Below are positions 2,857-39,057 of a stretch of DNA of 39,125 bases, in pieces. Both the position numbers and the translations under genes were made by a program. Position 1 is the stretch's first letter. Each line of letters begins with the position of its first letter. Under the pieces are notes generated by a model that had not been told where the DNA came from, searched no databases, and saw only the letters and a list, made by a program, of their open reading frames with translations. Source of the DNA: Parcubacteria group bacterium GW2011_GWA2_40_143 (GTDB taxonomy: Bacteria > Patescibacteriota > Minisyncoccia > UBA9983); the NCBI GenBank assembly GCA_000996035.1, contig LBYH01000005.1, positions 1 through 39,125 on the forward strand, given 5' to 3'.

Positions 2857-3222
2857 GGTTTTACATCGCGCGACTGCTCCGCTTATAGCGGGGAGGAAAG
2901 TCCGAACACGTCCGGCTTTAAGCCGGAGGACGGTAGCGGGTAACGCCCGTCTGCCTCGCTTATAGCGTGGCAAGGGATGCGAGCAGAGACGTTGGCTTAA
3001 GAGATTAAGCCAAAGCCCTTATGGGGTTAGCTCGGGCGGAAACGCTCGGGGTGAAACGGCTAAATTCCTACCTACGCGCAAGGCCGTATTCTGTCAGGTT
3101 TAAAGCTTGACAGAAAGTGCCGCTTGACCGCCGGAGTAATTCGGCGGCTAGATAAATAGTCGCGCTTTGCTTTTCGCCATTTGGCGAGGCAAAGACAGAA
3201 TTCGGCTTATAGATGTGAAATC
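2857..3222 (+). ncRNA. rnpB: RNase P RNA (atypical architecture)
   Basis: GAGGAAAGTCCGAA (2893-2906) and ACAGAATTCGGCTTATA (3195-3211) with covarying P4 (CCGAA/TTCGG); P1 GGTTTTACATC/GATGTGAAATC; P2 GCGCGACT/AGTCGCGC; TATAAT at 2845-2850 upstream. Confidence 0.93.
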
Positions 3223-3229
3223 AAATATC

Positions 3230-7472: not shown

Positions 7473-9263
7473 ATGAATAGCAGTAATATACGTAACTTTT
7501 CTATTATAGCCCATATTGATCACGGCAAGAGTACTCTTGCCGACAGGATTCTTGAGATAACCGGCTCGGTTGAAAAGAGAAAGATGAAAGAGCAATTGCT
7601 TGACTCAATGGAATTGGAAAGAGAAAGGGGAATAACGATTAAAATGCAACCGGTGAGAATGAAGTTTAAGGATCATGTTTTAAATCTAATAGACACACCC
7701 GGCCACATTGATTTTAATTACGAAGTTTCCAGAGCACTAAAGGCGGTGGAGGGTGCCGTTTTACTCGTTGATGCCACGCAAGGCGTGCAAGCGCAAACCA
7801 TCACAAACGTGGAAATGGCGAAATGTCTCGGCTTGGTGATAATACCTGTTTTAAACAAAATAGATCTGCCAACGGCGAGGATAGATGAAGTTAAAAAAGA
7901 AGTAATGGAATTTTTGGAATGCGGCGAAGAAGAAGTTTTGCAAGTTTCCGGCAAGACCGGCGCCGGCGTGGAAGAGCTCTTGAGCGAGATTGTAAAACGC
8001 GTTCCTCCGCCCAAAGAAGAAATATCAAGCGGAGCGAGAGCCATCGTGTTTGACTTTGAATATTCACTCCATCAGGGAATGATTGTGTACGTAAGAGTAA
8101 CCGATGGCGAGATAAAAAAAGGCGATCAGCTCAAGCTTTATCAAGCGGGAGAAATATTTTCAGTCGGTGAGATCGGTTTCTTTTCGCCGGAAAAAAAGCC
8201 GGCAGATTCTCTTTCCGCCGGCGAGATCGGTTATATCGTTACCGCCATAAAAAAGGCCAGCATTGGCACGGTGGGAGACACGGTGGTATCCGTTAAAGAG
8301 CCGCTGTCGCCGCTGGGCGGCTATATGCAGCCTAAACCCGTGGTATGGGCCAGCATCTATCCGGAATCGCAAGAAGATCTGGCGGAGTTCAGACGCTCGC
8401 TTGAGAGACTCAAACTCTCAGATAGCTCGCTCTCTTTTGAAGAAGAGCAAAGTGGATCAATGGGGCGGGGCTTTAGATGCGGCTTTTTGGGGATGCTTCA
8501 TTTGGAAATAGTGATAGAAAGACTTAAAAGAGAATTTAATCTTAATCTTGTGGTGGCAATGCCGACTATCACTTACAAGGTGTTACTCATGGACGACAAA
8601 GAAGTGGAAATTTATTCTCCTAATCTTTTTCCTGAAGAGAATCTTATTAAAAAAGTTTTTGAGCAGTGGGTTGATATGCAGATAATAATACCGCCGGACA
8701 GGCTCGGCGGCTTAATGCCGCTGCTTTACGAGCACGAGGCGGAAGTGGGCGAGATGGAGCAATTCGGCAAGAGCAGAAATATAATAAACGCTAAAATGCC
8801 GCTGAGAGAATTGATGAGAAACTTTTTTGACGAACTTAAAAGCGTTACATCCGGTTACGGTTCTTTAAGTTATAAAATATCGGGCATGAGGGAAGCGCCA
8901 AACGGCAGTATCGTGAAGCTGGATATTTACGTGGCGGAGGAGATAATTCCGGCTTTTTCAAAAATTGTGAGCAAAGCGCGGGTGGAAAAAGATGCCGAGG
9001 TGGCGGTGGAGAAACTTAAAGATCTCATACCAAGAGCGCTTTTTGCCATTAAGATTCAGGCCAAGGCGCTTGGCAGAATATTGGCTTCAAGATCTATCAC
9101 TCCGCTTAAAAAAGACGTTACCGGTTATTTGTACGGAGGAGATATAACCAGAAAAAAGAAACTCTGGGAAAAACAAAAAAGAGGCAAAGAAAAACTCAAA
9201 AAACTTGGCAAAGGCAACGTAAATATCCCCCAGGATGTGTTTGTGAAAATGATGCAGGGGTGA
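7473..9263 (+). CDS. lepA: Elongation factor 4 (LepA)
   Basis: IRNFSIIAHIDHGKSTLADR, ERERGITIK, DTPGH, NKID, GFRCGFLGMLH, GGDITRKKKL. Confidence 0.98.
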   Translation: MNSSNIRNFSIIAHIDHGKSTLADRILEITGSVEKRKMKEQLLDSMELERERGITIKMQPVRMKFKDHVLNLIDTPGHIDFNYEVSRALKAVEGAVLLVDATQGVQAQTITNVEMAKCLGLVIIPVLNKIDLPTARIDEVKKEVMEFLECGEEEVLQVSGKTGAGVEELLSEIVKRVPPPKEEISSGARAIVFDFEYSLHQGMIVYVRVTDGEIKKGDQLKLYQAGEIFSVGEIGFFSPEKKPADSLSAGEIGYIVTAIKKASIGTVGDTVVSVKEPLSPLGGYMQPKPVVWASIYPESQEDLAEFRRSLERLKLSDSSLSFEEEQSGSMGRGFRCGFLGMLHLEIVIERLKREFNLNLVVAMPTITYKVLLMDDKEVEIYSPNLFPEENLIKKVFEQWVDMQIIIPPDRLGGLMPLLYEHEAEVGEMEQFGKSRNIINAKMPLRELMRNFFDELKSVTSGYGSLSYKISGMREAPNGSIVKLDIYVAEEIIPAFSKIVSKARVEKDAEVAVEKLKDLIPRALFAIKIQAKALGRILASRSITPLKKDVTGYLYGGDITRKKKLWEKQKRGKEKLKKLGKGNVNIPQDVFVKMMQG

Positions 9264-9266
9264 GTC

Positions 9267-9296
9267 GAGCAAATGATACTGTTTCGTAATTCAAAG
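9267..9296. repeat. Solo arm of the 36876-37016 inverted-repeat element
   Basis: GAGCAAATGATACTGTTTCGTAATTCAAAG is the reverse complement of 36876-36905 at 28/30 positions. Confidence 0.85.
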
Positions 9297-9300
9297 ATTA

Positions 9301-9831: not shown

Positions 9832-9902
9832 GCGGAATTGGTTTAGTGGTAGAATGCGACCTTCCCAAGGTTGAGACACGGGTTCGATTCCCGTATTCCG
9901 CA
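9832..9902 (+). tRNA. tRNA-Gly (CCC), CCA not encoded
   Basis: Acceptor GCGGAAT/ATTCCGC, anticodon arm CGACC-TTCCCAA-GGTTG, T arm ACGGG-TTCGATT-CCCGT. Confidence 0.96.
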
Positions 9903-14804: not shown

Positions 14805-16244
14805 ATGAAATTTTTTATTAGGATTTTTATTTTTGCTTTTTTCGCGATTACGCCGTTTTACGCCGGCGCTTCTTTGGAGATTACGGAGATAATGTATGAT
14901 CTTAGCGGAACGGATACTAACAGGGAATGGATAGAAATTTATAATAATGGAGAGGAGAGCGTGGATGTTTCAACTTGGAAATTTTTTGAAGAAAATACGA
15001 ATCACAATCTAGTCGCGTCTCAAGGAGATACTGTTTTAGTAAAAGGGGAATATGCCGTTATTGCCGATAAGCCGGAGAAATTTTTAATTGATTGGCCGGA
15101 TTTTGCCGGCATTATCTTGGATAGTTCTTTTTCTCTAAAGAACACGGGAGAAACTTTGACTTTAAAAGATGCCGATTTAAATATCATTGATTCAGTAAGT
15201 TACACTTCCGATTGGGGAGCGGAAGGCGATGGTAATTCTCTTCAGAAAATAGGCGGGGAGTGGAAAGCGGCCGCGCCCACTCCGGGATCGGCGAATGAGG
15301 CATCAAGCGAAAACACTTCAGAGAATCCGCCGATAGAGGAGAGCGCGTCGCCAAGCCAAGAGCAGGATATTGATATTGTTACGCAGACGATTATTGCCAT
15401 GGAAGAAAAGATTTACGCTGATGCCGGCGCTGATAAAATCGCGGTTGTAGGCGCGGATACGGAATTTAGGGGCACGGCCTTAGGCTTTAAAAAAGAACCG
15501 CTTTCAAACGCCAGATACCTTTGGAGTTTTGGTGATATGGAATACCGCGAAGGGCAGAATGTAACCCATTTTTATAAATACCCGGGAGAGTACATTGCCG
15601 TTTTAGAGGTGTCTTCCGGTTCCAAATCCGCTTCCGACAAGATTGTGGTAAAGGTGGTGGAAAATAAAATAAAAGTGCTGGAAGCTGATGCCAAATTTGT
15701 AAAAATAAAAAATGATTCAAGTTTTGATATAAATATTTCAGGATGGTTTTTGCGAGGCAGCGGTAACACCTTTTTCTTTCCGCGTAATTCTTTTATAAAA
15801 AGCGGCGCGACTTTAGCCATTTCCTCCGAGCTTACCAAAGTGTTTGTAAACGAAACCTTTAGAACCATTGAGCTTTTGTATCCAAACGGATCTTTGGTTG
15901 ATTTTTATATCTTGCCGTATAAGACATTGGTTGTCGCTTCTTCCGACACCGTGGCCGCCGCGGTAAAAAGTTTAAACACAAATGAAATACCACGAAGTCA
16001 GACTCAACCAAAGGAGGCAATAAGCCAATCGGCGACCAGTAGTGTAGTATTGAAAGAAAAAAACGCCGGCGAAACTCTGCTTGAAACGGCGGAAGCCGCT
16101 TCAAGCAACATGGAAAACGACATTGTGCTTGCTGCCGAAGACGGTAAAGACGGAAATTTAGGCAAGTGGTTGGCTTTTGTCGTCTCTCTCGGCTTTTTTG
16201 GCGCGGCCGGTTTGTATTTCGTACGTCGTCATGGTGACGTTTAA
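14805..16244 (+). CDS. Surface protein with lamin-tail and PKD-like domains, C-terminal TM anchor
   Basis: Signal peptide; ITEIMYD...EWIEIYN...DVSTWK (LTD); YLWSFGD...HFYKYPGEY (PKD); C-terminal hydrophobic helix plus RRH. Confidence 0.8.
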   Translation: MKFFIRIFIFAFFAITPFYAGASLEITEIMYDLSGTDTNREWIEIYNNGEESVDVSTWKFFEENTNHNLVASQGDTVLVKGEYAVIADKPEKFLIDWPDFAGIILDSSFSLKNTGETLTLKDADLNIIDSVSYTSDWGAEGDGNSLQKIGGEWKAAAPTPGSANEASSENTSENPPIEESASPSQEQDIDIVTQTIIAMEEKIYADAGADKIAVVGADTEFRGTALGFKKEPLSNARYLWSFGDMEYREGQNVTHFYKYPGEYIAVLEVSSGSKSASDKIVVKVVENKIKVLEADAKFVKIKNDSSFDINISGWFLRGSGNTFFFPRNSFIKSGATLAISSELTKVFVNETFRTIELLYPNGSLVDFYILPYKTLVVASSDTVAAAVKSLNTNEIPRSQTQPKEAISQSATSSVVLKEKNAGETLLETAEAASSNMENDIVLAAEDGKDGNLGKWLAFVVSLGFFGAAGLYFVRRHGDV

Positions 16245-17309
16245 CATTTTCTCCACGGAAAATTCAGTTTTGATTTTTTCATGAAGATTGGCGGCCAGCG
16301 TGTCTCGCAAGTTTTTGTCATCAATCAATCTTTTAATAGCTTCAGTCAGCGCTTCCGGATTTTTGGGCGGTATCAAAAGACCGTCTTTTCCATCTTCTAT
16401 AATTTCCGGTATGCCGCCAACATTTGAGGCAATGACGGGCAAGCTGGCCAAACCCGCTTCTAAGATCACATAAGGCAAGCCTTCTTTAATTGATGGCAGC
16501 GCAAAAATATCAAAATTTTTAAGATATCGGGAAGCATCAGACATATTGCTGATGATGTTGAATTTTATGCTTGGTAAATTTTTTTGAGCTTCTCTCAGAT
16601 ATTTATGACCTTTATTTTTCGTAGATTCTCCTATGGTGCCGATAGTAAATTCTTCTTCGGTTCTCTCTAAAAAGTTATAATCATCGGGTGAGATACCATT
16701 ATGTATAACAACAAATTTTGCGGCCGGCGCGATTTTATTTTTCAGCGCTTCATTGTAATCGTTATGAGAGACACAGATAATTTTGTCGTAAAACAGGCAG
16801 GTGATTTTGCTGACCATTTTTATCAGGTGTATTTGCCACCCTGGTCTGCTTTCCAAAAATGCCCAACCGTGAACGGTAAAAATAGCGACAGGGCGCAAAA
16901 CGGATAAGTTTGTTTTGGAATCATTTCCCTTATGACCGTGATGGAAAAACAAATTTATCCGTTTTGCCGCTTTCTTGGCAAGAAAATAAATAAGGCTGGC
17001 AAATCCAACAATACCGCCAGCTTTGGAACTGGAAACATGTATAACATCCGGCTTTATTTTGAATAGAATTTTTAGAATTTCAAAAAAAGAAAAAATTTCT
17101 TTAAAAATATTTATGTCTCTTTGGAAAGATTTTATTTCAAAGTAGGGCAAGCCGGCCGATATTATTTTATCCGCCATCACACCTTTGTCGCCGCCGGCAA
17201 CAATCGGTTCAAAATGGTTTTTCGGCAGATTTATCGCCAGATCGTAAACATATTTCTGAGCGCCACCCCAGACAGATTTGGTGATTATATATAAGACTTT
17301 TTTCTTCAT
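16158..17309 (-). CDS. Glycosyltransferase family 4 (GT-B) with in-frame hairpin insert
   Basis: WGGAQKY, FTVHG, IHNG, PSIKEGLPYVILEA (EX7E), VGGIPEII. Confidence 0.9.
   Translation of the reverse strand: MKKKVLYIITKSVWGGAQKYVYDLAINLPKNHFEPIVAGGDKGVMADKIISAGLPYFEIKSFQRDINIFKEIFSFFEILKILFKIKPDVIHVSSSKAGGIVGFASLIYFLAKKAAKRINLFFHHGHKGNDSKTNLSVLRPVAIFTVHGWAFLESRPGWQIHLIKMVSKITCLFYDKIICVSHNDYNEALKNKIAPAAKFVVIHNGISPDDYNFLERTEEEFTIGTIGESTKNKGHKYLREAQKNLPSIKFNIISNMSDASRYLKNFDIFALPSIKEGLPYVILEAGLASLPVIASNVGGIPEIIEDGKDGLLIPPKNPEALTEAIKRLIDDKNLRDTLAANLHEKIKTEFSVEKMLNVTMTTYEIQTGRAKKAERDDKSQPLA
16895..16967 (+). repeat. 73-bp hairpin element inside the GT coding sequence
   Basis: GCAAAACGGATAAGTTTGTTTT / AAAACAAATTTATCCGTTTTGC form a 22-bp stem (one G-T) around a 29-nt loop; core 39/52 identical to 22941-22992. 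Confidence 0.85.
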
Positions 17310-17377
17310 TTTTTATTTAAAATCGACAAAAGCTTGTCTTTTAGCCGTTTTTGTAGTATTTTAACACTAACATATTT

Positions 17378-18544
17378 ATGAAAGTTTCTAAAGGAGACAA
17401 GAAAAAAATCCTTATTTTTTCACTTGCTTACTCGCCATTTGTGGGCGGAGCGGAGCTGGCGGTACAAGAGATTACCGATAGAATCGGCGAGTTTGAATAC
17501 GATCTTATTACGAAGAAGTTTGATCCCCATCTGCCGTCTTTTGAGAAAATTGGCAATGTGAACGTGCACAGAATAAGATCACCCAAACTGCTTTTTCCAT
17601 TTCTGGCTTATTTGAGAGGTAAAGTGATGCATAAAGAAAAAAAATATTCCATGGTTTGGTCTATTATGGCCAATCGAGCCGGATATGCCGCTTTGTTTTT
17701 TAAAAGAAAATTTCCGGAAGTGAAATTTTTGCTTACTTTGCAAGAGGGCGATACTCTTGATCACCCCAGAAAAAGAGCGGGGTTGTTGTGGATTTTTGTC
17801 GGACGATTGTTTAAAAAGATTTTTACCGAGGCGGATTGCGTTCAGGTTATCTCCGGTTATCTTGCCAGATGGGCGAAGAATATGAGGGTAAGCGGTGGCA
17901 AAATAATTATTGTGCCAAACGGTGTTGATATGGAAAAATTCAAATTTTCCGAAAGAGGAAAAAAGACGGATGATGCCGTTGTGATAACCACATCAAGATT
18001 GGTGCGAAAAAATGGTTTGGATATTCTGATAAAGGCGATAGCTGAGATAAGTAGAAGCGGAAGCGGCATGAAAATAAAATGTTTAATATTGGGCAATGGA
18101 CCGGAGGAGAGAAATTTAAAGGATTTGGCCAAAAGTCTTAGTGTAAAAGACAAAGTTGAATTTTTGGGGCATGTTGACCCCGCTCTTTTGCCGGGATACC
18201 TGGGTATGGCGGATATCTTTGTGAGGCCGTCAAGGAGCGAGGGTTTAGGCAGTTCGTTTTTGGAAGCCATGTCTGTTGGTTTGCCGGTAATAGGCACGAG
18301 AGTGGGCGGCATAGTGGACTTTATTAAAGACCCTTCGGAAGTTGGCGCCGATATGGCTACCGGGGTTTTTGCCGAATCGGAGAATCCTTCCAATGTGGCC
18401 GATAAAATCAAGATGCTTGTAAGAAATAAAGATCTGGCCGACAGTATTTCCAGAAACGGCAGGTGGCTTATAACTCAAAATTATTCTTGGGATATTGTGG
18501 CTGATAAAATGCGGGCAATTTTCAGTAAAATATGTCATAATTAA
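17378..18544 (+). CDS. Glycosyltransferase family 4
   Basis: PFVGGAE, VPNGVD, SRLVRKNG, PSRSEGLGSSFLEAM (EX7E). Confidence 0.9.
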   Translation: MKVSKGDKKKILIFSLAYSPFVGGAELAVQEITDRIGEFEYDLITKKFDPHLPSFEKIGNVNVHRIRSPKLLFPFLAYLRGKVMHKEKKYSMVWSIMANRAGYAALFFKRKFPEVKFLLTLQEGDTLDHPRKRAGLLWIFVGRLFKKIFTEADCVQVISGYLARWAKNMRVSGGKIIIVPNGVDMEKFKFSERGKKTDDAVVITTSRLVRKNGLDILIKAIAEISRSGSGMKIKCLILGNGPEERNLKDLAKSLSVKDKVEFLGHVDPALLPGYLGMADIFVRPSRSEGLGSSFLEAMSVGLPVIGTRVGGIVDFIKDPSEVGADMATGVFAESENPSNVADKIKMLVRNKDLADSISRNGRWLITQNYSWDIVADKMRAIFSKICHN

Positions 18545-18549
18545 AAAAT

Positions 18550-19224
18550 ATGGGTTTTGATAAAAAAGATTTTTATCGTTCTTTAATCGCCGGCGGGGCG
18601 ATTGCTGTTTTAAGCATACCGATTTTCAGAAACTTGGGAATGTTGGGCGGATTTTCAAAATACAATTTATTTTTATTGGTGATGATGGCGTTTTTTTGGT
18701 CGGTGTTTATCGCTCTCTCAATGGCGCTTGTCAATTATGTTGTTTACAGAATCACTTTTTTAAAGTGGCCTGTAATTTTTGAGATAAGCAAATACGGCAC
18801 GATAGGCTTGCTCAATACTTTTCTGTCAGCCGCCATTTTTAATTTTCTTATTATGATGACAGGCGTGGAAAAAGGTTTGACCGTTGACGCTTTCGTGGCC
18901 GTCTCCTTCGCCATTACCACTTCACACAGCTTTCTTTGGAATAAACTATGGACTTTTAATACCAAGGGGTCGGGCAATCACAAAAAAGAATATTCCGCCT
19001 TTTTTACCATAACCGGCCTCGTGTCTTTGCTTAACATATTTCTAATGCATATCTTGATAAACACCATTGGTTCGCCGGAATTTTTAAACGAAAGAATCTG
19101 GACTAATTTGGCTTTTGCCATGTTGGTGCCGGTATCTTTCCTTGGCAATTTTTTCGGCTATAAATTTTTTGTTTTTAAAACCGAAACGGCCGCGGCTAAA
19201 AATGCCGTTATGGAAACAATATAA
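18550..19224 (+). CDS. GtrA-like membrane protein
   Basis: KYGTIGLLNT, SFLWNKLWTF, NFFGYKFFVF GtrA-type motifs with two extra N-terminal TMs. Confidence 0.8.
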   Translation: MGFDKKDFYRSLIAGGAIAVLSIPIFRNLGMLGGFSKYNLFLLVMMAFFWSVFIALSMALVNYVVYRITFLKWPVIFEISKYGTIGLLNTFLSAAIFNFLIMMTGVEKGLTVDAFVAVSFAITTSHSFLWNKLWTFNTKGSGNHKKEYSAFFTITGLVSLLNIFLMHILINTIGSPEFLNERIWTNLAFAMLVPVSFLGNFFGYKFFVFKTETAAAKNAVMETI

Positions 19225-20252
19225 TGCGGATGAAGAAAAAAATTTTAATCTGCAGCGGTTTGTATCCGCCGGACGTTGGCGGGCCGGCCAAGTATGCCAA
19301 AAATCTTGAACAAGAATTTCTAAAAATAGGATATGGCGTTAAAGTGTTGGCTTACGGAGTGGAAAAAAAAATGCCAATCGGCATAAGGCATTTTTGGTAT
19401 TTCTTTAGAATAATTTTAGCTTTATCAAAGACGAATCTTATAATAGGTCTGGATATTCTTTCAACCGGCTTCCCGATGGTTTTAGCCGGTAAAATTTTAG
19501 GTAAAAAAACAATCTTGCGAGTCGGCGGCGACTTTCTTTGGGAGACTTACGTGGAATCAACCGGCAATCTTATCAAACTGGAAGATTTTTATAATAAAAA
19601 GCCGCAGCTATCAATTAAGTTCAAGATTATCGCTCTATTTCAAAAGTTCGCGATCAAAAACGCTTCCGCGTTAGCCTTTAACACCAAATGGCAAAAAGAA
19701 TTTTTTGAAAAAGTTTATAATCTTGACGCGAGGAAAAATTTTGTGATTGATAATTTTTATCCAGAAAAAATAGTTAATTCTGAAAATGAAGACAAACCTA
19801 AGGAGAAGAATTTTCTTTTTGCCGGTCGCAAAATTAAATTCAAAAACCTTAAAATATTAGAGAAGGTTTTTGAAGAATTGAAAACAGAGGGCGTTAAGGC
19901 AAAGCTGGAGGTTATAGATAATCTTTCCGCCGAAGAACTAAAGGAGAAAATAAAAAGTTCTTACGCGTTGATAACCGTATCAATTTCCGATTTTGCGCCA
20001 AATTTTATAATAGAGGGTGTTGGCGCCAATAAACCTTTTATTTTAACTGAAAATTGCGGCTTAACGAAAAGACTCAATGGGCTCGGTGTTTTTATTGATA
20101 CTTCCGGTGCCGATAATATAAAGAAGGCGGTTTTGAATTTGCTAGACGATGATGTTTATAAAAACTATAAAAAAAGACTCGCCGATTTTAATTTTACTCA
20201 CTCGTGGCAAGAAATTGCTCAAGAGTTTTTAGTTATTTATAAAAGCTTATGA
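19224..20252 (+). CDS. Divergent glycosyltransferase family 4
   Basis: YPPDVGGPAKY, FAGRKIKFKN, SDFAPNFIIE (DX7E variant of EX7E). Confidence 0.75.
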   Translation: MRMKKKILICSGLYPPDVGGPAKYAKNLEQEFLKIGYGVKVLAYGVEKKMPIGIRHFWYFFRIILALSKTNLIIGLDILSTGFPMVLAGKILGKKTILRVGGDFLWETYVESTGNLIKLEDFYNKKPQLSIKFKIIALFQKFAIKNASALAFNTKWQKEFFEKVYNLDARKNFVIDNFYPEKIVNSENEDKPKEKNFLFAGRKIKFKNLKILEKVFEELKTEGVKAKLEVIDNLSAEELKEKIKSSYALITVSISDFAPNFIIEGVGANKPFILTENCGLTKRLNGLGVFIDTSGADNIKKAVLNLLDDDVYKNYKKRLADFNFTHSWQEIAQEFLVIYKSL

Positions 20253-21421
20253 AGATTTTAAATTTAAGTTTAGACAAAGCGGCGCTTGATAAAAATTCTT
20301 CTCTGGCGAGGAGAATAATTGAGTATGGTGGCATGACAGATAAATACACTATGGTGGTGCCGATCGGCAATGAGAGTGTTTTAAAGATATCTGATAAAGT
20401 AAATATCTATGGCGTTGGCGGAAGAAACAAAATTACGCGCTTGTTAAAGCTTTATTTTTTCGCCAAAAATATTTTAAAATCGGAGAAGTATGATGTTATC
20501 ACCACGCAGGATGTTTACTATCTCGGTTTCGTGGCGGTGCGTTTGGCTAAAAAATTCAACATCGGACTTGAAGCGCAAGTTCACGGCTGGGAAAAATTTG
20601 TTGGTATTCGCAAGATGCTTGCCGGAAGAACGCTAAAGCGCGCCGATTCCGTAAGAGTGGTAAGCAGCAGACTTAAAAAACAGATAATAAAAGATTTTGG
20701 CGTAGCGGAAGAAAAAATAACCGTGGCGCCGATATTTGTAAATCTAAAAACTAAAATCTTAAATCTAAAATCTGAAAAATTTAAAAAAGACAAGTTTATT
20801 TTTTTAACGGTCGGACGATTAGTGCCGGTTAAAAATATCGGTTTACAAATAAAGGCGATGGCTAAAGTAGTTGAAAGTCAAAAGTTGAAAGTGAAAAGTG
20901 GAAAAATTGAACTTTGGATAATTGGCGATGGCCCGGAAAAATCAAATCTCAAATCTAAAATCTCAAGTCTCAAATTAGAAAACAACGTGAAGTTATTTGG
21001 TTGGCAAAACAATCCGGAGGAATTTTATTCCCAAGCTGATGCCTTTTTGCTCACTTCAAACAGCGAAGGTTGGGGAATGGTGGCGGTGGAAGCGGCGACT
21101 CACGGTTTGCCGATAATAATGACGGATGTCGGTCTTGCCGGTGAGGTTATAAAGAATGGCGAAAGCGGCATAGTGATACCGGTAGGGAATCAGGCTAAGC
21201 TGGAAGAAGTGATGATTAAAATCATTGGTGATGAAGATTTGCGGAGAAGACTGGCGGAAGGCGCCATTTCAGCCATAGAAAAAATGCCAAGCAAAGAGGA
21301 AACACTGGCTTTATACAAAAAAAGTTTGGAAAAGGCGATGAAAAGTATTGAAATAATTACACAAGGAAAAGGGAAGTTTATTTCGGACGACTTTTCCGCT
21401 ATGTCAGGGAGGGAGAAATGA
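20249..21421 (+). CDS. Glycosyltransferase family 4; last ~22 codons and stop come from a hairpin element
   Basis: VGRLVPVKN, IIGDGPE, SNSEGWGMVAVEA (EX7E); tail [21 protein letters not shown] lies within the 21355-21445 repeat. Confidence 0.9.
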   Translation: MKILNLSLDKAALDKNSSLARRIIEYGGMTDKYTMVVPIGNESVLKISDKVNIYGVGGRNKITRLLKLYFFAKNILKSEKYDVITTQDVYYLGFVAVRLAKKFNIGLEAQVHGWEKFVGIRKMLAGRTLKRADSVRVVSSRLKKQIIKDFGVAEEKITVAPIFVNLKTKILNLKSEKFKKDKFIFLTVGRLVPVKNIGLQIKAMAKVVESQKLKVKSGKIELWIIGDGPEKSNLKSKISSLKLENNVKLFGWQNNPEEFYSQADAFLLTSNSEGWGMVAVEAATHGLPIIMTDVGLAGEVIKNGESGIVIPVGNQAKLEEVMIKIIGDEDLRRRLAEGAISAIEKMPSKEETLALYKKSLEKAMKSIEIITQGKGKFISDDFSAMSGREK

Positions 21422-21445
21422 ATTTCCCTTTTTCTTGTGTTGGGT
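21355..21445 (+). repeat. Hairpin element copy A1
   Basis: Inverted arms AATTACACAAGGAAAAGGGAAGTTTATTTC / GAAATGAATTTCCCTTTTTCTTGTGT; 77/82 identical to 22926-23007. Confidence 0.9.
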
Positions 21446-21514
21446 GTTTTCTTTCATTTATTCTTGTTTTTTGTTAGAATTTAGAAGCTAACTTTATTCA
21501 AAGTATCAATAATA

Positions 21515-22879
21515 ATGATTTTTAAACGAAGCTTTTTAATTTTTGGTTTAATTTTTATCGCTATTTTTGTCGTTTCTGCCGGCAGGGGTGTTTTTGCCGA
21601 GGATCTTGGTCAAGAAGCCGTTAATAACAGAAAAGCTCAGCTGGAAAAAGAGCTTGAATATCTTGAAGCACAAATAGACGGTTATGGATCGCTTATCCAA
21701 TCCAAACAAAAAGAATCAGCCAGCTTGCAAAGAGATATAGATGTTTTTAACGCCAAAATACAAAAGACTAAACTTGAGATTCAAAAGTTGGACATCACTA
21801 TCGCGAACGCTTCATCTGGCATTTCTAAGCGAAACTCAGAAATAGATTTCTTGCAAGAAAAGGCTGACAGAGTTAAAGAATCTCTTGCCGAACTTGTAAG
21901 AAAGAATAACGAAATGGATGATGTTACCGTGGTAGAAATGATTTTGGGAAATGAAGTTGTTTCTGATTTTTTTGTAATTACAGATTCTTTCGCTTCGGTG
22001 CAAAAATCAATTCACGTATCTCTTGAGGATATACGTGATACTAACGATAAGCTTGGCAAAGAGATAGATAATCTGGAGAAAGAAAAGGCGGAAAAAAATC
22101 GTCTGAAAATGGCTCAAGAGATGAACAGAAAGAGTCTGGCGGCCAGCGAGGCGGAAAAAAAGGAAATGCTCAACGTTACCAAGGGGCTGGAAAAAAATTA
22201 CGCGAAAATTCTTGAAGATAAACACAGAGAGGCCGCCAAGATACGAAGCGCTTTGTTTGCCTTAAGAGACACGGCCGCCATTCCGTTTGGGGAGGCGTAT
22301 GGCTACGCTTTGGAAGCGCAGAAAAAAACGGGAGTGAGGCCGGCGTTTTTACTGGCGATTCTTACTCAAGAATCTAATCTGGGAGAAAATACCGGTCAAT
22401 GCCTTGTTACTGATTTTAAAACAGGAGATGGTGTTGGTAAGAATACCGGCAGAGTATTTAAAGGCATTATGAAGCCAAGCAGAGATGTTACGCCTTTTCT
22501 TGACCTTGCCAACCGCTTGAGTTTTGATCCTAAAACAAAACCGGTATCTTGCCCGCAAACGGGAGGATACGGCGGCGCTATGGGGCCATCGCAATTTATA
22601 CCTTCAACATGGAATATATACGAGAAAAAAATCAGCGCCGCTACTGGCGTGGTGATACCCGATCCTTGGATTCCGCGAGACGCTTTTTTCGCCTCGGCCA
22701 TATATTTGGCTGATCTTGGGGCGGGGAAAGGCACTTACAATGCCGAACACGAAGCGGCGGCCAGGTATTACGCGGGAGGGGGTTGGTATAAGGCGTCGGG
22801 CCAAGGTTATGGCACAAGTGTTTTAAGACACGCTCAAAACATTCAAGAGAATATGATTGATCCGCTTAATCTCTATTAA
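21515..22879 (+). CDS. Secreted coiled-coil protein with lytic murein transglycosylase (MltB/SLT-like) domain
   Basis: Signal peptide, long PcsB/EnvC-like coiled coil, LLAILTQESNLG (catalytic ES), GAMGPSQFIPSTW, DAFFASAIYL. Confidence 0.85.
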   Translation: MIFKRSFLIFGLIFIAIFVVSAGRGVFAEDLGQEAVNNRKAQLEKELEYLEAQIDGYGSLIQSKQKESASLQRDIDVFNAKIQKTKLEIQKLDITIANASSGISKRNSEIDFLQEKADRVKESLAELVRKNNEMDDVTVVEMILGNEVVSDFFVITDSFASVQKSIHVSLEDIRDTNDKLGKEIDNLEKEKAEKNRLKMAQEMNRKSLAASEAEKKEMLNVTKGLEKNYAKILEDKHREAAKIRSALFALRDTAAIPFGEAYGYALEAQKKTGVRPAFLLAILTQESNLGENTGQCLVTDFKTGDGVGKNTGRVFKGIMKPSRDVTPFLDLANRLSFDPKTKPVSCPQTGGYGGAMGPSQFIPSTWNIYEKKISAATGVVIPDPWIPRDAFFASAIYLADLGAGKGTYNAEHEAAARYYAGGGWYKASGQGYGTSVLRHAQNIQENMIDPLNLY

Positions 22880-22920
22880 AATCCAATGATGAGAGCCGAG
22901 CAAATTCAAATGTCAGCTAT

Positions 22921-23011
22921 ATCTAACACAATGAAAAGGGAAGTTTATTTCGGACGACTTTCCCGTTATGTCCGGGAGGGAGAAATGAATTTCCCTTTTC
23001 CTTGTGTAATT
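22921..23011 (+). repeat. Hairpin element copy A2 (may also act as terminator between convergent genes)
   Basis: Direct repeat of A1 with inverted arms and internal CTTTCCCG/CGGGAGGG stem. Confidence 0.9.
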
Positions 23012-23039
23012 GTCCCAACTTTTCTCTTTTAAGTGTCAT

Positions 23040-23771
23040 CTAAAGCGCTTCCATCGCTTTAAAAATCTTATCCAATCCGCCTTCCATAATTCTTTCTATG
23101 TCGTGAAAGGACTTACCGACGCGATGGTCGGTGATCCTGTCTTGTAAAAAGTTGTAAGTCCTTATTTTTTCCGAACGGTCTTGCGTGCCGATTTGTTGTT
23201 TTCTGGCATCAGCCATTTCGCCGTGAGCTTGGCTCTTTTGAGCTTCACTGATTTTTGAGGCCAGAATCATCATGGCTTTTTCTCTGTTTCTTTGCTGGGA
23301 TCTCTCGCTAGTGCATTTGACCACTAAGCCGGTCGGTCGGTGGGTGATTCGGACAGCAGTTTCCACCTTATTGACATTTTGCCCTCCCGCTCCGCCGGAA
23401 CGAGTAAAAGCGATTTCCAAATCCTGAGGTTTGATTATCATTTTTTCTGTTTCCCTTATCGGCAAAACCGCCACGGATGCGGTGGAAGTATGCACTCTGC
23501 CCGATTTTTCCGTCGCTGGCACTCTTTGAACGCGATGGACTCCGCTTTCTTGTTTTAATTTATCATAAACTCCTTCTCCGGATAATTCTATGACGACTTC
23601 TTTGTATCCGCCCAAGTCATTTCTTGATTCGTCTAAAATAGAGGCAGTCCAGCCTTCTCTTGAGGCGAATTTTGTATACATATTGGCCAAGTCGCCGGCA
23701 AAAATAGCCGCCTCGTTTCCGCCAACGCCGGCGCGGATTTCAAGAATAATATTTTGGGGAGATGAGTTCAT
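23040..23771 (-). CDS. prfA: Peptide chain release factor 1 lacking N-terminal domain 1
   Basis: [27 protein letters not shown] (RF1 PxT), [10 protein letters not shown] (GGQ), [10 protein letters not shown]; only 243 aa. Confidence 0.92.
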
Positions 23772-23772
23772 T

Positions 23773-23799
23773 ATGAATTTCCCTTTTCCTTGTGTAATT
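23773..23799 (+). repeat. Solo right arm of hairpin element (A3)
   Basis: ATGAATTTCCCTTTTCCTTGTGTAATT is identical (27/27) to 22985-23011. Confidence 0.9.
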
Positions 23800-26189: not shown

Positions 26190-29100
26190 ATGTTCAAAAA
26201 AATTTTTAGTATCGCTCTTCTCTCCATCGCCGCCATTTTTGGCGTCTTCAATCTTACTCCAAACGTCTCAGCTGAAGAATTGCCGGAGGTGGGCATAAAA
26301 GAAGTAGAGGTGAAAATTGGCGACAAAGAAATTATAATTTTTGCCACACTTTTTAACAGTAGCGACAGTTTGACTACCACCCCTTTTACTTATCTGGCAA
26401 TGCTAAAGAGCATAAACCACTTCATTCCCTCATCCGATCCTGACCTTGATTTGCCGGCGCTTATCGTCTCAGCCGTGGAGGGAGAAGAATACACGATTCT
26501 TAATCCGCTTGAAGAAAAAAGGGCTTCGTATCTTATACCGATAAGTCCGGATTTGCCGCAAGATAATTATGACTTGTCTCTCAACCTTATCTTAAAAGAC
26601 GGTCGTTCCGTAGGTTATTATTATGATGTGCTTAGAGATTACGGCGCAAACGAGAAAAGCAACAAAACTTCATACACAGAAGGCTTTTTAGCTTTTAATC
26701 AAGAAAGTTGCGGCGTGGCGAGAGCGGATGGATTAATCTTTCCGGCAAACGAAGGACCTGTTTTTAAGCCGCTTGAAAGACCTGTGGCCAATTGTAAGGT
26801 AAGAAACATCGGCGACAAAGATTTAACGGTGTATCCCGTGGTAATTTGGAAAGAGTTTTTTGTGTACGGCAGACCGTCCAGCGGGCAGAGGTATTACGAG
26901 AAGCTTGAACAGCCTATTTTCATAAGAGCCGGAGAAACCAAAAATGTGGAAGTTTTGCTGCCGGACGAAGAAGTTCCTCAGGTTTATCAGGCGCTTGTCA
27001 GTTTTGAAGATGCCGGTGGCAATAAAAAATCTTTTGATATGTTCTTTAGATGGACCATAAAAGGGGAGTCCGGCAGAGTCAACGCCGTAAGCCTTGTGGA
27101 TGCGCCGAAAGAGAGTTACACCAAAGGAGAAACTCTTGCTCTTTCGGTGGATTATTACGGGTCGGTTGATCTATATTGGCGAGATTTGGAAGAGAATATT
27201 TCTCAAACTGCCAATTTTAATCTTACCGCTATCGTAAAAGATAAAAACGGCGAAATCTGCGGCCAAAAAACCGTAAAGCTTCCGACCATAGAAGATGGCG
27301 GTCTTAAAAACGAAGTGGTTGATGTCGCGCTTAGCAAGGATTGCAATGGGGTCTCTTACAGTGTTTCTCTTATTTCGGAAGACGGCAATGTGGTGGCGCA
27401 AGAAGAGGATATTTTGCCTGTTAGAAAAAACATTGCCGGAAATCTTATGCCATATTTTTATCTTCTAACGGTTCTAATGGCCTTTATTATTTTTGTCATG
27501 GTTTTTGCGATTCGTAAAAAGAAAAAATCAATAACTGGTGTTTATTTGCTTGCTTTTGTTTTCGCGGCGACTTGTTTTTTTGGTATTTTCAGCGAAACGG
27601 AAGCGGCAACAACTAAACCCTATACCGGCGTGCCTTCTCCGAGTGGTTATAGTGGCGAAGCCTTTACCGCAAATGACACAAACAATGGAGAATCTTCCGA
27701 TAAACTTTATTCGTACTACACCGGTGGCAACAATGAAGTAAAAATAAAAGATGTTTATGCTTACTTTGACGATTATTTTGCCTATACTAATGAAGTTCCT
27801 TATGTGCACTTTGATTACGGATCCGGTTATGGCGGTTCGTGTTCAAACTCAGCTTTATACATAAGAGTTAAAATGGAGTTGGTTGTGGGAAATTCAACTT
27901 ACAAGCTTGATATAAAAAAGAGATCAAGTTCCGACGGTTATGATGGTAAATATATTAAAGAGATAATTGGTTCGGCAATGAGTGACAGGAATCTCAATCT
28001 TGAAATAAATCCGGATAATTTTGCCAATATTTATGACAGTAATGGCAAACTCAAAGATAATGCCAATCTGATTATATACGTCACTGCCGTAAGCCGACAC
28101 GCTCAAGACAGTACCACGCCGGAAGGTTCTTACTACAAAAGCACATTTACTACTCCGACGAATAAAACGCAGTATAGTTCCAGGAGTGATGCTTTAGACG
28201 CCAGCGATGACATGAAGATAACCATACCACTTTCAAGCTTACCAAACCCGAGCGTAACTTTAGACGCCAACCCGACTGAAGTGGACTATGGCGGAAGTTC
28301 CAAATTGACGTGGACAACGAAAGATGTTGATTCGTGCGCAGAGTTCAACACAAATAATGATTCGCAATTTAGCGGATCAATTACCGTTATGAGCTCAGGC
28401 TCAGAAACTATTTACAATATCACAAAAGACAATACTTATACTCTTCAATGCGATAAGTATCTTGGCTCGGCTGTTGGTAAAAAGAATTATTTAGATACGG
28501 CGAGCGTGAGTGTAAAACCCAATCCTTCCTGCACTGCCAGTCCGAGTTCAACAACGACAGGCAGTAACGTAACATTCTCATCAGCCGTGACGGGGGGAAC
28601 ATCGCCCTATACTTATTCTTGGTCGGGAACGGATATTTCAGGAACAAATACCGGTTCAACCCTTACCAAATCGTATTCAACCATTGGAACAAAAAGCGCC
28701 ACAATCAAGGTTACGGACAAAAACAACAAAATCGGAGAGGGTACTTGTACGGTGAGTATTAGCTCTCCAGATCAATGCGATTCTGCGAACAACTCTTGTG
28801 TAAGCGGTTCTTGGTCTGATCTTACCGACACATCAACGAAATATAAATGGAAATGCGGAAGTTTGATATAAATGGAAATGCGGAAGTTTGAGTTGCGAGG
28901 CAAGTATTACAACCACGCCCTCAGATCAATGCGATTATGCGAACAACTCTTGTGTAAGCGGTTCTTGGTCTGATCTTACCGACACATCAACGAAATATAA
29001 ATGGAAATGCGGAAGTTTGAGTTGCGAGGCGAGTATTACAACCACGCCACTTGAGCCTCCAACAGGTCTTACCGGATCGGCCGGAGCTTGTGGCGGTAAT

Positions 29101-30984
29101 ATAAACTTGTCGTGGAATTCCGTTACGGGCGCGACGAGCTATACTCTTTACAGAAGCGGTTATGAATTTAGTGGAATTAACGGAACATCATATGCTGATT
29201 CCGGTTTGGGGACCGATATGAGTCATGAATATAAAGTGAAAGCATGCGATAGTAGCGGCGTATGTTCCCCTTATTCTCCGTCCATATCCGTAACTTCTTC
29301 CGGCGAGTGCCCATCCGATGCGTATTCATTGACATTCAGGACTAAAGGAAACGGTTCGGGATACGCCAAGTTTTATGATTGGCGAGATTATTGGCAAGAC
29401 GGTTCATTTTATGATTGGGTACTTATGGGCGATAATCTATCAGAGTTGACCGATGGCGAGCAGGCGACCATAGGAAAAGATTATAAATTCAAATTGACGG
29501 CTATGCCTGCCGCGGATTCTTATTTCGGCGGCTGGTCCGGTTGCGATGATAGCAGTGGCGATGAGTGTTTCCTTAATGAAAATACATCCGGAACAAGTAA
29601 AACGGTAACGGCCGATTTTAAGAAGGAAGGCGGCCCGGTTTCCTGCGATCCGACGGTAAAATTTGGTCCAAATAGTGATATCATGACATCAGGCAATACG
29701 AGAAATATTTATTGGTATTCGGCTTATGCCGATTCGTGCGTTCCATCCGGCGGAGGCAAAGATACAAATTGGGCAAATTCAAGCATAGGAACGAGCGGAT
29801 CTTATAGTGTTACGGAAATAAAAACAAGCGAGGGAATCTCAAGAACTTACAATATAACTTGCTATAACAGTTCAGGCGGAAGTTCTTCCGGATCAGCGAC
29901 GATAACTGTTAGTGACAGTAAGAATTCTCCGTATTTTGCATTTGACGCGTTTCCTAATCCGGTTACTTCCGGCCAATCAACGAATCTTTATTGGATTGGG
30001 ACGAATTGTCTTAGTTCTAGAGTTAGTTTATTTTCACCAACCGATTCCTCGGTGGGAGAATTATATAATACCAGTTCGTATATAGCTACGTTGAAGGGAT
30101 GGTACGGTTCAATAGCCGATAACGGCGGTTATTACTCGTGGGGGTTAAGCTCTTCCAACACCGGAGACCATGCCACAAGTGATCTTTCCAGCGATACCAC
30201 ATACGTTTTGCGTTGCGAGACGCTAGAAGGAACTAATTCTTACGCATACCAGTATCTTACGGTGGAAGCCGGCGTTAATTCTTGCGGTCCGTCAAACGTT
30301 CCGCCGGAAGTTTCTTTAGTCTGCGATCCGGTTTCTTGCGAAGGGTACTATGGTTCGGTGGCGGGGCAGGATGGTTCATTGAAAGTTACTTACGCCGCGA
30401 CCGACGTGGATGACAATATAGACAGTTGTGAATTTGAAGTTGATGGTAATCTTGAATCATCTTCTTGCAACGATAATTATTACCCGACATCCGTTTTGAG
30501 CGCTGGGACACATACGGTAGCCATGACGGCAACTGATAAAGATGGCGAAGCCGCGGTTGGATCAAAAACCGTTGAAATTTTAGAGCGAAAGACAGTTGTA
30601 TTTGAATTTTACCCTCCGACGGACGACCCTCCGACGGACGACCCTCCGACGGACGACCCTCCGACGGAATTATATGCCACCATTATAGACGTTATAGACG
30701 GCTTGTCGGTCAATTCTACTTCTGTCACTATGATGGTCTCTGGCACATGCGAAAATATCTCGCTTTCAACTTCAGCGATAGTGCCTTCAATCCTAGGCGC
30801 GGAAGTTAAGCTAACCAAAAATAATGATGGAACTTACAATATAACCGTAAAATCAATACCCGGAATAACGGCAACGGGAACATATAACATTACCGTAAAA
30901 GGCACTGGCACGAATTGCGCAGAGACCACCGTGTATATTCCCTTAAACGTGAAAAACATAACCACTAGATGGGAAGAAGTTTAA
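26190..30984 (+). CDS. Giant surface protein (1589 aa if rejoined), split into 26190-28871 and 28888-30984 by a 25-bp duplication
   Basis: Signal peptide, two central hydrophobic helices, PKD-like, Cys-rich repeats, FN3-like and InlB-B-like domains. Deleting one 25-bp copy gives 4770 nt in a single frame. Confidence 0.8.
28768..29048 (+). repeat. Two tandem 129-bp (43 aa) Cys-rich units; the first contains an exact 25-bp tandem duplication
   Basis: DQCD(S/Y)ANNSCVSGSWSDLTDTSTKYKWKCGSLSCEASITTTP twice; ATATAAATGGAAATGCGGAAGTTTG at 28841-28865 and 28866-28890. Confidence 0.95.
30611..30668 (+). repeat. 15-bp tandem repeat (PPTDD linker)
   Basis: ACCCTCCGACGGACG x3 plus 13 nt of a fourth unit, perfect identity. 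Confidence 0.95.
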
Positions 30985-36875: not shown

Positions 36876-37016
36876 CTTTGAATTACGAAATAGTATTATT
36901 TGCTCAGCTCGCATAATTTTCTACGAAAATTTGCTCTACTCATCCGCTTTTATTAGAAAGATTAAAGTAGCGGGTTCCGTAAGGCGTCGCAAACAATACT
37001 ATTTCGTAATTCAAAG
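36876..37016. repeat. 141-bp element with 28-bp terminal inverted repeats (MITE-like)
   Basis: CTTTGAATTACGAAATAGTATTATTTGC (36876-36903) versus GCAAACAATACTATTTCGTAATTCAAAG (36989-37016), 27/28 complementary. Confidence 0.85.
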
Positions 37017-37111: not shown

Positions 37112-37183
37112 GCCACCTTAGCTCAGCGGTAGAGCAACGCTTTTGTAAAGCGAAGGTCCCCGGTTCAAATCCGGGAGGTGGCT
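37112..37183 (+). tRNA. tRNA-Thr (TGT), CCA not encoded
   Basis: Acceptor GCCACCT/AGGTGGC, D arm GCTC/GAGC, anticodon loop TT-TGT-AA, T arm CCCGG-TTCAAAT-CCGGG. Confidence 0.96.
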
Positions 37184-38942: not shown

Positions 38943-38977
38943 TAACCCACTTGGAGACTGAGTCTCCAAGTGGGTTA
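38943..38977. repeat. Perfect palindrome after alaS (possible terminator or REP-like)
   Basis: TAACCCACTTGGAGACT-G-AGTCTCCAAGTGGGTTA, 17-bp arms, no U-tract. Confidence 0.85.
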
Positions 38978-39004
38978 GATCATAAAACCGGAAGCCATTT
39001 TATT

Positions 39005-39057
39005 TTTTACTCCAATGTCAAGGTTGAACCTTGACATTGGAGTAAAAGTTATCCACA
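39005..39057. promoter_or_regulatory. Perfect palindrome plus DnaA box
   Basis: TTTTACTCCAATGTCAAGGTT-G-AACCTTGACATTGGAGTAAAA (21-bp arms) then TTATCCACA at 39049-39057. Confidence 0.7.

What the first reader, a model, noticed from the sequence alone, without database searches (positions are those of the whole stretch)
16895..23799. Family of 70-90 bp hairpin elements with conserved loop and covarying stem
Seen: copies at 16895-16967 (B), 21355-21445 (A1), 22921-23011 (A2) and a solo arm at 23773-23799. B and A2 share a core (39/52 identical): AAGTTTrTTTyGGA-N4-TTTCCC(G)TTATGnCCGnGAnGGArAAAyrAATTT. Stem differences are compensatory (A-T to G-C, C-G to T-A, T-G to T-A) and the outer stems differ in sequence yet stay paired. 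The wobble pairs work only on the + strand, and all copies lie in + orientation regardless of host gene direction. Inference: a structured ssDNA or RNA element selected for fold plus loop sequence and spread by an enzyme encoded elsewhere (HUH/REP-associated transposase or an ssDNA-acting tyrosine recombinase are candidate classes). I do not recognise it as a named family.
Basis: partly seen in the sequence, partly recalled or inferred. Interest (0 to 1): 0.75.

Follow-up and report, generated by a model that had tools for sequence, protein, structure and literature searches.

The report
Translated hairpin repeats inside essential genes
The hairpins are real members of a small family of about 78-base palindromic DNA repeats that, in this tiny groundwater bacterium and its relatives, sit between genes and also in frame inside essential genes, much like the "selfish" palindromes known from Rickettsia.

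Summary
They belong to a family of 12 full copies in this 729-kb genome, plus 1 solo arm and 1 half-deleted copy. About 50 more copies were read in relatives.

All share a 16-nt apical loop (consensus TTTCCCGTTATGWCCG). Stems covary strongly: 87-88% of cells are paired, against 58-63% in shuffles.

More than half of the copies lie in frame inside housekeeping genes: GatB, an IscS-like gene, a Xer-type recombinase, LigA, GT4, and in relatives TsaD, YchF, KsgA, PheT and LeuS. They occupy hypervariable loops. In 35 of 37 in-gene copies a codon boundary falls on the hairpin's dyad centre, in either orientation.

The family was found only in two families of its class. It matches no Rfam family, and none of the genome's eight HUH-Y1 (RAYT-like) genes is bracketed by it.

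Best reading: an RPE-like or REP-dimer-like palindromic repeat, probably recognised as folded single-stranded DNA. The mobilising enzyme is unknown.

The "+ orientation" rule does not hold genome-wide.

This scan has noted other in-frame palindrome families in such genomes on other DNA, but not this family.

The parts
16886..16976 (+). Copy B (hairpin 16895-16967). It lies in frame, antisense, inside the GT4 glycosyltransferase gene and encodes about 25 extra residues.
   Evidence: Five relatives have 102 nt between the same two anchors where G000 has 171.
16158..17309 (-). Host gene of B: a family-4 glycosyltransferase of 383 aa.
   Evidence: Pfam Glycos_transf_1 and Glyco_transf_4. Orthologue alignment.
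21354..21445 (+). Copy A1. In sense orientation it supplies the last 22 codons and the stop codon of the glycosyltransferase ORF 20249-21421.
22921..23012 (+). Copy A2, intergenic between the convergent genes 21515-22879 (+) and 23040-23771 (-).
23773..23799 (+). Solo right arm of an A-type copy, in the 36-nt spacer between the L31 gene and the release-factor gene. Read on the - strand it places a purine-rich, Shine-Dalgarno-like run just before the release factor's ATG.
   Evidence: 27/27 identical to 22985-23011. Sequence read. Gene identities.

Best explanation
The features are copies of a non-autonomous palindromic repeat of about 78 nt (26 codons). It is a long hairpin with a conserved 16-nt apical loop. 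It behaves like Rickettsia palindromic elements and intragenic REP dimers.

Shown:
- The whole hairpin is the unit that is present or absent at a site.
- Copies occur between genes and in frame in variable loops of housekeeping proteins, where they are read through.
- Copies persist at the same sites across genera and still keep their pairing.

Inferred:
- The folded single strand carrying the loop TTTCCCGTTATGWCCG, most likely as DNA, is what a trans-acting enzyme recognises. One of the genome's HUH-Y1 proteins is the leading candidate, but this is unproven.
- Pairing is kept by several processes together: the need for a hairpin in mobilisation, overwriting or conversion between copies of one genome, and template-switch correction of quasipalindromes.
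- In genes, only copies that add a hydrophilic loop survive. These are the copies with a codon boundary on the dyad centre.
- That phase is symmetric, so a copy can also be inverted in place without breaking the frame.
For: Family size and fold:
- 12 full copies in the genome by nhmmer and by covariance model.
- Strong covariation.

Unit of insertion:
- A clean 78-nt gain in the Xer-type gene relative to G005, including the outer stem.
- The GT4 site measures 102 nt when empty and 162-171 nt when filled.

Translation:
- 37 of the 60 copies whose loop I could place lie in open frames of at least 250 codons.
- 35 of those 37 are read in one triplet phase, with the codon boundary at alignment column 46|47, the dyad centre.
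- All 7 sense-oriented in-gene copies use the phase where the consensus has TAA, and in each the TAA is changed.
- Hosts are unrelated core genes.
- In an AlphaFold2 model of GatB both inserts lie between secondary-structure elements, with block-mean pLDDT 39-67.

Persistence at the same sites:
- TsaD in 4 genomes, YchF in 3, IscS-like in 5, GatB site 1 in 4.
- Between same-site copies, 2-15 of 30 pairs are changed on both sides yet stay paired.

Turnover within genomes:
- Genome-specific cores are shared by different sites: two GatB sites in G005, and the GatB and IscS-like sites in G015.
- Young, near-identical intergenic subfamilies occur in G015, G023 and G000 (A-type copies 89-93% identical).

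Inversion:
- A3 and A4 share flanks of at least 70 nt on each side but carry the hairpin in opposite orientation.

Strand bias: 73 G-U against 29. Since 30 of 37 in-gene copies are antisense to the mRNA, the favoured strand is mostly not the mRNA.
Against: - No transposase is linked. None of the 8 Y1_Tnp genes is bracketed by the family; they carry other, short palindromes. In five relatives only 2 copies lie within about 1 kb of a Y1 gene, which is near chance expectation.
- No clear target-site duplication was seen: at most a possible 3-nt TTC at one site and none at the GT4 site.
- No identical source copy exists for the G000-specific insertion. Its closest relative in the genome is 67% identical.
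- Resident copies stay paired over genus-level divergence. Selection on mobility alone does not explain this, so a function in place is not excluded.
- Same-strain contigs from other samples showed no empty allele.
- The strand bias and the covariation counts are inflated by shared ancestry among the copies.
Confidence: 0.6

Rival explanations
1. The hairpins are functional single-stranded structures kept in place by selection. They could be binding or nicking sites whose conserved apical loop is read by a dedicated protein, as in rolling-circle origins. Candidates are a HUH enzyme or the Xer-type tyrosine recombinase. Alternatively they are antisense RNA hairpins. On this view they are not mere passengers.
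For: - Pairing and loop are kept at the same sites across genera.
- The strand-specific G-U excess falls on a strand that is mostly not the mRNA.
- The loop is more conserved than the stems.
- Copies cluster at the Xer-type gene: 3 inside plus 1 about 60 nt upstream in G000, 2 in G005, at least 2 in G015, and 2 in G126 of another family.
- Small palindromes nest in the apical loop, which fits a loop that is single-stranded in vivo.
Against: - Six of the 17 same-family genomes have no copy at E <= 0.01, yet all 18 family genomes carry the Xer-type gene.
- Sites are empty or hold unrelated inserts in many relatives.
- One copy is half deleted and one is a solo arm, without visible harm.
- There is no orientation rule relative to GC skew.
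Confidence: 0.17
2. The pairing is purely mutational. Once a quasipalindrome exists, intramolecular template switching during replication copies one arm onto the other. The 'covariation' then needs neither selection nor an enzyme, and the family spreads by recombination or conversion between loci.
For: - Same-site copies differ at up to 51 of 92 positions yet stay paired.
- Genome-specific cores are shared between sites.
- No transposase is linked.
- Template-switch perfection of quasipalindromes is established for E. coli. This is recalled from memory; no paper was read here.
Against: - Conserved asymmetries survive in all copies of a subfamily: a bulge, the unequal GT/TAA internal loop, and the same G-T wobbles in all four A-type copies. 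Arm-to-arm copying should erase these.
- It does not explain the conserved loop.
- It does not explain the new 78-nt insertion.
Confidence: 0.12
3. The conserved unit is the peptide: a shared surface module such as ..SLRTDxxGNxTE.. added to many proteins. The DNA hairpin would be a by-product.
For: 28 of 37 in-gene copies are read in one orientation and phase and give similar hydrophilic peptides.
Against: - About 23 of 61 copies are not in a long open frame, and these include the youngest subfamilies.
- Sense-oriented copies give a different central peptide.
- Stems vary freely in sequence while keeping complementarity, which no protein constraint predicts.
- The inserts have low model confidence.
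Confidence: 0.03
4. The in-gene copies are not translated. They are cut out of the mRNA or bypassed by the ribosome, as with the translational-bypass elements of yeast mitochondria (recalled from memory).
For: The mRNA would contain strong local structure. No RNA or protein data were available to exclude removal.
Against: - All in-gene copies keep the frame open.
- Net length changes are multiples of 3: 78, 60, 66 and 69 nt.
- The consensus TAA is changed in all 7 sense-oriented in-gene copies. Removal would make that change unnecessary.
Confidence: 0.03

Closest known systems
Rickettsia palindromic elements (RPE; Ogata et al. 2000, 2002), as summarised in the MITE review PMC10969869, of which I read passages
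   Same: - Repeated palindromes inserted in frame in unrelated housekeeping genes and read through.
- Also found between genes.
- No transposase of their own.
- Inserts sit where the protein fold tolerates them.
   Different: - A different phylum and no sequence relation tested.
- This unit is about 78 nt, against roughly 100-150 nt for RPE-1.
- The apical loop is the most conserved part.
- A codon boundary falls on the dyad centre in both orientations.
- Copies persist at the same sites across genera.
REP dimers / REPINs with RAYT transposases, and intragenic REPs (Di Nocera et al. 2013, PMC3733652: abstract and passages read)
   Same: - Inverted pairs of short palindromic units that can fold into one large stem-loop.
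- Conserved spacers in some dimer classes.
- Intragenic dimers encoding 20-30 residues.
- REPs nested inside other palindromes.
- RAYT-like genes are present in this genome.
   Different: - The arms are only weakly palindromic on their own (mean z about -0.9).
- There is no terminal GTAG or CGTC tag. A GTAG occurs, but internally, beside the loop of one subfamily.
- No RAYT gene is flanked by this family.
- Copy number is low, 6-17 per genome.
Stem-loop origins of rolling-circle replicons, with a conserved loop nicked by a HUH Rep and variable stems (recalled from memory)
   Same: The loop is conserved while the stems covary, and the hairpin is strand-specific.
   Different: - No Rep gene is attached.
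- There are dozens of chromosomal copies, many of them inside genes.
- The stem is about 30 bp rather than about 10.
- Nicking was not tested.

Membership tests
RPE-like protein-coding palindromes | A repeated element that folds as a palindrome or hairpin | tested here: met
RPE-like protein-coding palindromes | Copies in frame inside unrelated protein genes, with the frame kept open | tested here: met
   37 of 60 placed copies lie in open frames of at least 250 codons. Hosts include GatB, IscS-like, Xer-type, LigA, GT4, TsaD, YchF, KsgA, PheT and LeuS.
RPE-like protein-coding palindromes | Inserts lie in loops compatible with the fold | tested here: met
   GatB model: the inserts at residues 196-222 and 349-373 lie between secondary-structure elements at low pLDDT. 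They fall in hypervariable alignment regions. Only one protein was modelled.
RPE-like protein-coding palindromes | Sequence homology to RPE-1 to RPE-10 of Rickettsia | not tested
   No RPE sequences were on hand. The family was found only in two families of its own class.
REP / REPIN with RAYT (REPtron) | A cognate RAYT gene bracketed by the repeat | tested here: not met
   The 8 Y1_Tnp genes are flanked by other, short palindromes. No bracketing was seen in 5 relatives.
REP / REPIN with RAYT (REPtron) | A unit that is a 20-40-bp palindrome with a terminal GTAG or CGTC tag, paired in inverted orientation | tested here: inconclusive
   The arms fold weakly on their own: 41 of 60 reach -3 kcal/mol or lower, and mean z is -0.9. 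The GTAG is internal and present in one subfamily only.
MITE derived from an insertion sequence | Target-site duplication and a parent IS with the same ends | tested here: inconclusive
   A possible 3-nt TTC at one site and none at the GT4 site. No parent IS was sought beyond the Y1 genes.
Any Rfam family | A score at or above the family's gathering threshold | tested here: not met
   No match at gathering threshold. Only animal miRNA-precursor models matched, at 26-34 bits against thresholds of 70-99.
Integron attC sites | Conserved R''/R' core sites at the foot of the hairpin, a variable loop, and an integron integrase nearby | not tested
   By eye the pattern is the reverse: the loop is conserved and the foot is variable. 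The core-site consensus was recalled from memory and no integrase search was run.

The most novel reading that the evidence does not exclude
These are loop-recognised hairpin elements. A dedicated single-strand-DNA enzyme (a HUH-Y1 paralogue or the Xer-type recombinase) would bind or nick the conserved 16-nt apical loop, as Rep proteins do at rolling-circle origins. It would thereby insert, invert and overwrite the hairpins in place. That would be a class distinct from foot-recognised REP/RAYT and IS200/IS605 ends. It would also explain why pairing and loop are kept inside essential genes over genus-level divergence.
Probability: 0.15. Interest if true: 0.75.

Novelty: new variant of a known kind. 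Interest (0 to 1): 0.5.

Why it matters
- It shows that extremely reduced genomes carry hairpin repeats inside essential translation and repair genes, and keep them for a long time.
- It gives a natural map of insertion-tolerant loops in those proteins.
- It offers a compact, testable single-strand recognition motif: a conserved loop on a variable stem.
- The dyad-centred codon phase is a simple rule for how a palindrome can live, and flip, inside a gene.
- It is a caution for covariation-based searches for non-coding RNA: palindromic repeats give very strong 'covariation'.
- It is also a caution for annotating protein lengths in such genomes.

Tried and rejected
1. **Rfam.** At gathering and at E <= 1 only sub-threshold animal miRNA-hairpin models matched.
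2. **Solo arm truncating the release factor: rejected.** Short release factors (open frames mostly 241-287 aa, PCRF match starting near profile position 97) are the rule in the family.
3. **Variable outer stems as arms of older palindromes, with only the core inserted: rejected.** For the two sites with empty alleles the whole hairpin is the gained unit.
4. **Snap-back synthesis of one arm from the other: rejected.** Conserved asymmetries are inherited by all copies of a subfamily.
5. **Replichore rule.** Six copies lie on the G-rich strand and 6 on the C-rich strand.
6. **GT4 orthology of the B-like copies in G001, G006, G007 and others: wrong.** Those hosts are YchF, PheT, KsgA, LeuS and one unassigned protein.
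7. **Expression.** No RNA holder was listed. Contigs of four DNA runs showed the same strain with the copies present, and other organisms with other letters at GatB site 1. No empty allele of this strain was seen.
8. **Literature.** Four searches for such elements in Candidate Phyla Radiation / Patescibacteria / Parcubacteria found nothing relevant. PMC186582 (Ogata 2002) is not held.
Full report
**Observation**

The window is contig C5 of a 729-kb, 24-contig genome. Earlier notes of this scan call the organism a Patescibacteria (candidate phyla radiation, CPR) bacterium. I did not verify the taxon. The best DNA holders are listed as groundwater metagenomes.

The three hairpins and the solo arm are at the stated coordinates. 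They fold far better than shuffles on the + strand (z -5.9 to -6.5) and less well on the - strand (z -3.2 to -4.9). The B/A2 core identity is 38/52 or 39/53, and the named compensatory changes check out.

**The family**

BLAST, a loop-motif scan, nhmmer and a covariance model built here (R1) agree on the copy set:
- 12 full copies in the genome;
- the solo arm;
- one half-deleted copy inside the Xer-type gene.

There are three looks.
- A-type has 4 copies, 89-93% identical: A1 and A2 in the window, and one each on C7 and C2.
- B is a single copy.
- C-type has 7 copies, whose stems are 50-71% identical to one another (one, here called C7, is nearer to the A-type).

All align without gaps, apart from one column, over 92 columns. 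They share the apical loop TTTCCCGTTATGWCCG.

Stems covary:
- 87.2% of cells are paired against 63.1% in shuffles;
- 27 of 30 pairs change on both sides;
- slid controls give 42-62%.

With about 49 further copies from relatives the figure is 88.3% against 57.9%. That alignment is fitted to the model and includes 5 opposite-strand rows. Rfam has nothing at or near threshold.

B and six C-type copies lie in frame inside long conserved genes:
- GT4 glycosyltransferase (B);
- an IscS-like desulfurase;
- GatB (two copies);
- a Xer-type tyrosine recombinase (two full copies plus the half-deleted one);
- LigA.

A1 supplies the last 22 codons and the stop of another glycosyltransferase.

Of 61 copies read in 13 genomes, I could place the loop in 60. 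Of these, 37 lie in open frames of at least 250 codons: 30 antisense and 7 sense to the host. The one dropped copy is a further sense-oriented copy in TsaD. Hosts in relatives are TsaD, YchF, KsgA, PheT, LeuS and GT4.

Orthologue alignments place the copies in hypervariable loops. In other genomes of the same family these loops are short or hold unrelated inserts. In an AlphaFold2 model of GatB (mean pLDDT 76), both inserts lie between secondary-structure elements, with block-mean pLDDT 39-67.

**A phase rule**

In 35 of the 37 in-gene copies the reading frame puts a codon boundary between alignment columns 46 and 47. That is the dyad centre of the hairpin. The rule holds in both orientations: 28 antisense and 7 sense.

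In the C-type consensus three of the six orientation/phase combinations are free of stops. Usage is very uneven:

| Orientation and phase | Stop-free in consensus | Copies |
|---|---|---|
| Antisense, dyad-centred | yes | 28 |
| Antisense, second open phase | yes | 1 |
| Sense, open phase | yes | 0 |
| Sense, dyad-centred | no (TAA) | 7 |
| Antisense, third phase | no | 1 |

All 7 sense copies use the phase where the consensus has TAA, and each has the TAA changed.

The dyad-centred phase is the only one that is unchanged when the hairpin is inverted in place. This fits three possibilities, which I cannot separate:
- insertion of a 2 x 13-codon unit at codon boundaries;
- selection for the hydrophilic peptide of that phase;
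- in-place inversion.

Inversion itself is supported outside genes. A3 and A4 share at least 70 nt of flank on each side but carry the hairpin in opposite orientation. PheT holds a copy at one site in opposite orientations in two families.

**Mobility and persistence**

One copy in the Xer-type gene is a clean 78-nt (26-codon) gain relative to G005, outer stem included. At the GT4 site, 5 genomes have 102 nt between two anchors and 4 have 162-171 nt. One of these four has a copy in the other orientation. The whole hairpin is therefore the unit of gain.

Copies also sit at the same sites across genera:
- TsaD in 4 genomes;
- YchF in 3;
- IscS-like in 5;
- GatB site 1 in 4.

Same-site copies differ at 16-51 of 92 positions, with 2-15 of 30 pairs changed on both sides yet still paired. 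Different sites within one genome share genome-specific cores: the two GatB sites in G005, and the GatB and IscS-like sites in G015. This points to conversion or overwriting among copies.

Young, near-identical intergenic subfamilies exist in G015 and G023.

**Distribution**

- 13 of 61 relatives-plus-self have a match at E <= 0.01. That is 11 of 17 genomes of the same family, and 1 of 43 genomes sampled from other families.
- In an even sample of the class, 8 of 151 genomes have a match. All are from two of 74 families: the organism's own family and f7 (genus g20, 6-17 matches per genome).
- These are samples searched with strict filters. The correct wording is 'not found in those searched'.

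**Strand**

G-U pairs number 73 on the loop-sense strand and 29 on the other. 26 of 31 copies fold better on the sense strand. Because most in-gene copies are antisense to the mRNA, the favoured strand is usually not the mRNA. That favours single-stranded DNA, or an antisense RNA, as the folded form. Shared ancestry inflates these counts. There is no rule relative to GC skew (6 against 6).

**Enzyme**

The genome has 8 Y1_Tnp (HUH, RAYT-like) hits. Each is flanked by other, short perfect palindromes, as earlier notes of this scan reported. None is bracketed by this family. The nearest copy is 1.5 kb from one of them. In five relatives the proximity is near chance.

Copies do cluster at the Xer-type gene, in two families. 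However, that gene is present in all 18 family genomes, including the six without any copy. New copies also tend to land beside old ones. I therefore leave the enzyme open.

**Architecture**

Each arm is weakly self-complementary, a purine run and a pyrimidine run around GTTTG. Mean z is -0.9, and 41 of 60 arms reach -3 kcal/mol or lower. The element can therefore be read as an inverted dimer of a small REP-like unit around a conserved spacer of about 28 nt. Such dimers are described for REP families, as are intragenic REPs and REPs nested in palindromes (PMC3733652, abstract and passages).

In relatives, small palindromes are nested in the apical loop of several copies.

**Comparison and verdict**

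The family works like Rickettsia palindromic elements (PMC10969869, passages) and like intragenic REP dimers. It is not shown to be a member of either. No RAYT is flanked by it, it has no terminal tag, and no homology to RPEs was tested.

Its own traits are:
- the loop-over-stem conservation;
- the dyad-centred codon phase;
- long persistence with pairing inside essential genes.

I found no description of such elements in this bacterial group in the held library. This scan has noted other in-frame palindrome families in such genomes several times, but not this one.

I rate it a new variant of a known kind, of moderate interest.

Noticed in passing
window 36876-37016 and 9262-9297; also C9:16551-16693, C7:10919-11110, C2:45862-46055: A second, MITE-like repeat with terminal inverted repeats of about 27 bp (starting CTTTGAATTACGAAATAGTAT). 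The window copy lies just upstream of the tRNA at 37112-37183. The C7 and C2 copies carry an A-type hairpin in their middle, where the window and C9 copies have other sequence.
   Followed up: partly
window 23040-23771 (-): The release factor next to the L31 gene is only 243 aa and lacks the first ~97 positions of the PCRF profile. Equally short release factors (open frames mostly 241-287 aa) are the rule across the family, and a second, longer release factor exists elsewhere in the genome.
   Followed up: partly
window 38988-39032: The end of the window holds part of the short palindrome (CAATGTCAAGGTTGAACCTT...) that flanks a Y1_Tnp gene on contig C3 at 38957-38991 and 39661-39687.
   Followed up: no
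relatives: L137, L128, L126, L131, L159, L160, L161, L162: Small palindromes (for example TCCGCC-N4-GGCGGA, once doubly nested) are inserted in the apical loop of copies in G005, G015 and genus g20. In G015 one such insert is translated inside the Xer-type gene.
   Followed up: partly
window 28768-29048 and 30611-30668: A 99-nt segment is repeated 154 nt apart at 99% identity, across the junction of two large ORFs. Overlapping direct repeats with a 15-nt period (28-nt copies starting 15 nt apart, ACCCTCCGACGGACG...) lie inside the ORF 28888-30984.
   Followed up: no
GT4 site in relatives (L145, L146, L147, L150, L152): The 'empty' alleles of the B insertion site are themselves short tandem repeats of 6-7 nt units, such as CTTTCAA three or four times. 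The unit differs between genomes, but the total length is the same, 102 nt between the anchors.
   Followed up: no
window 20739-20984: Two similar AAATCT-rich segments lie 190 nt apart inside the glycosyltransferase gene 20249-21421 (repeat families D6 and D10). They may be another in-frame repeat.
   Followed up: no
window 2858-3225, 9832-9902, 37112-37183: RNase P RNA (class A, 109.7 bits) and two tRNA genes.
   Followed up: no
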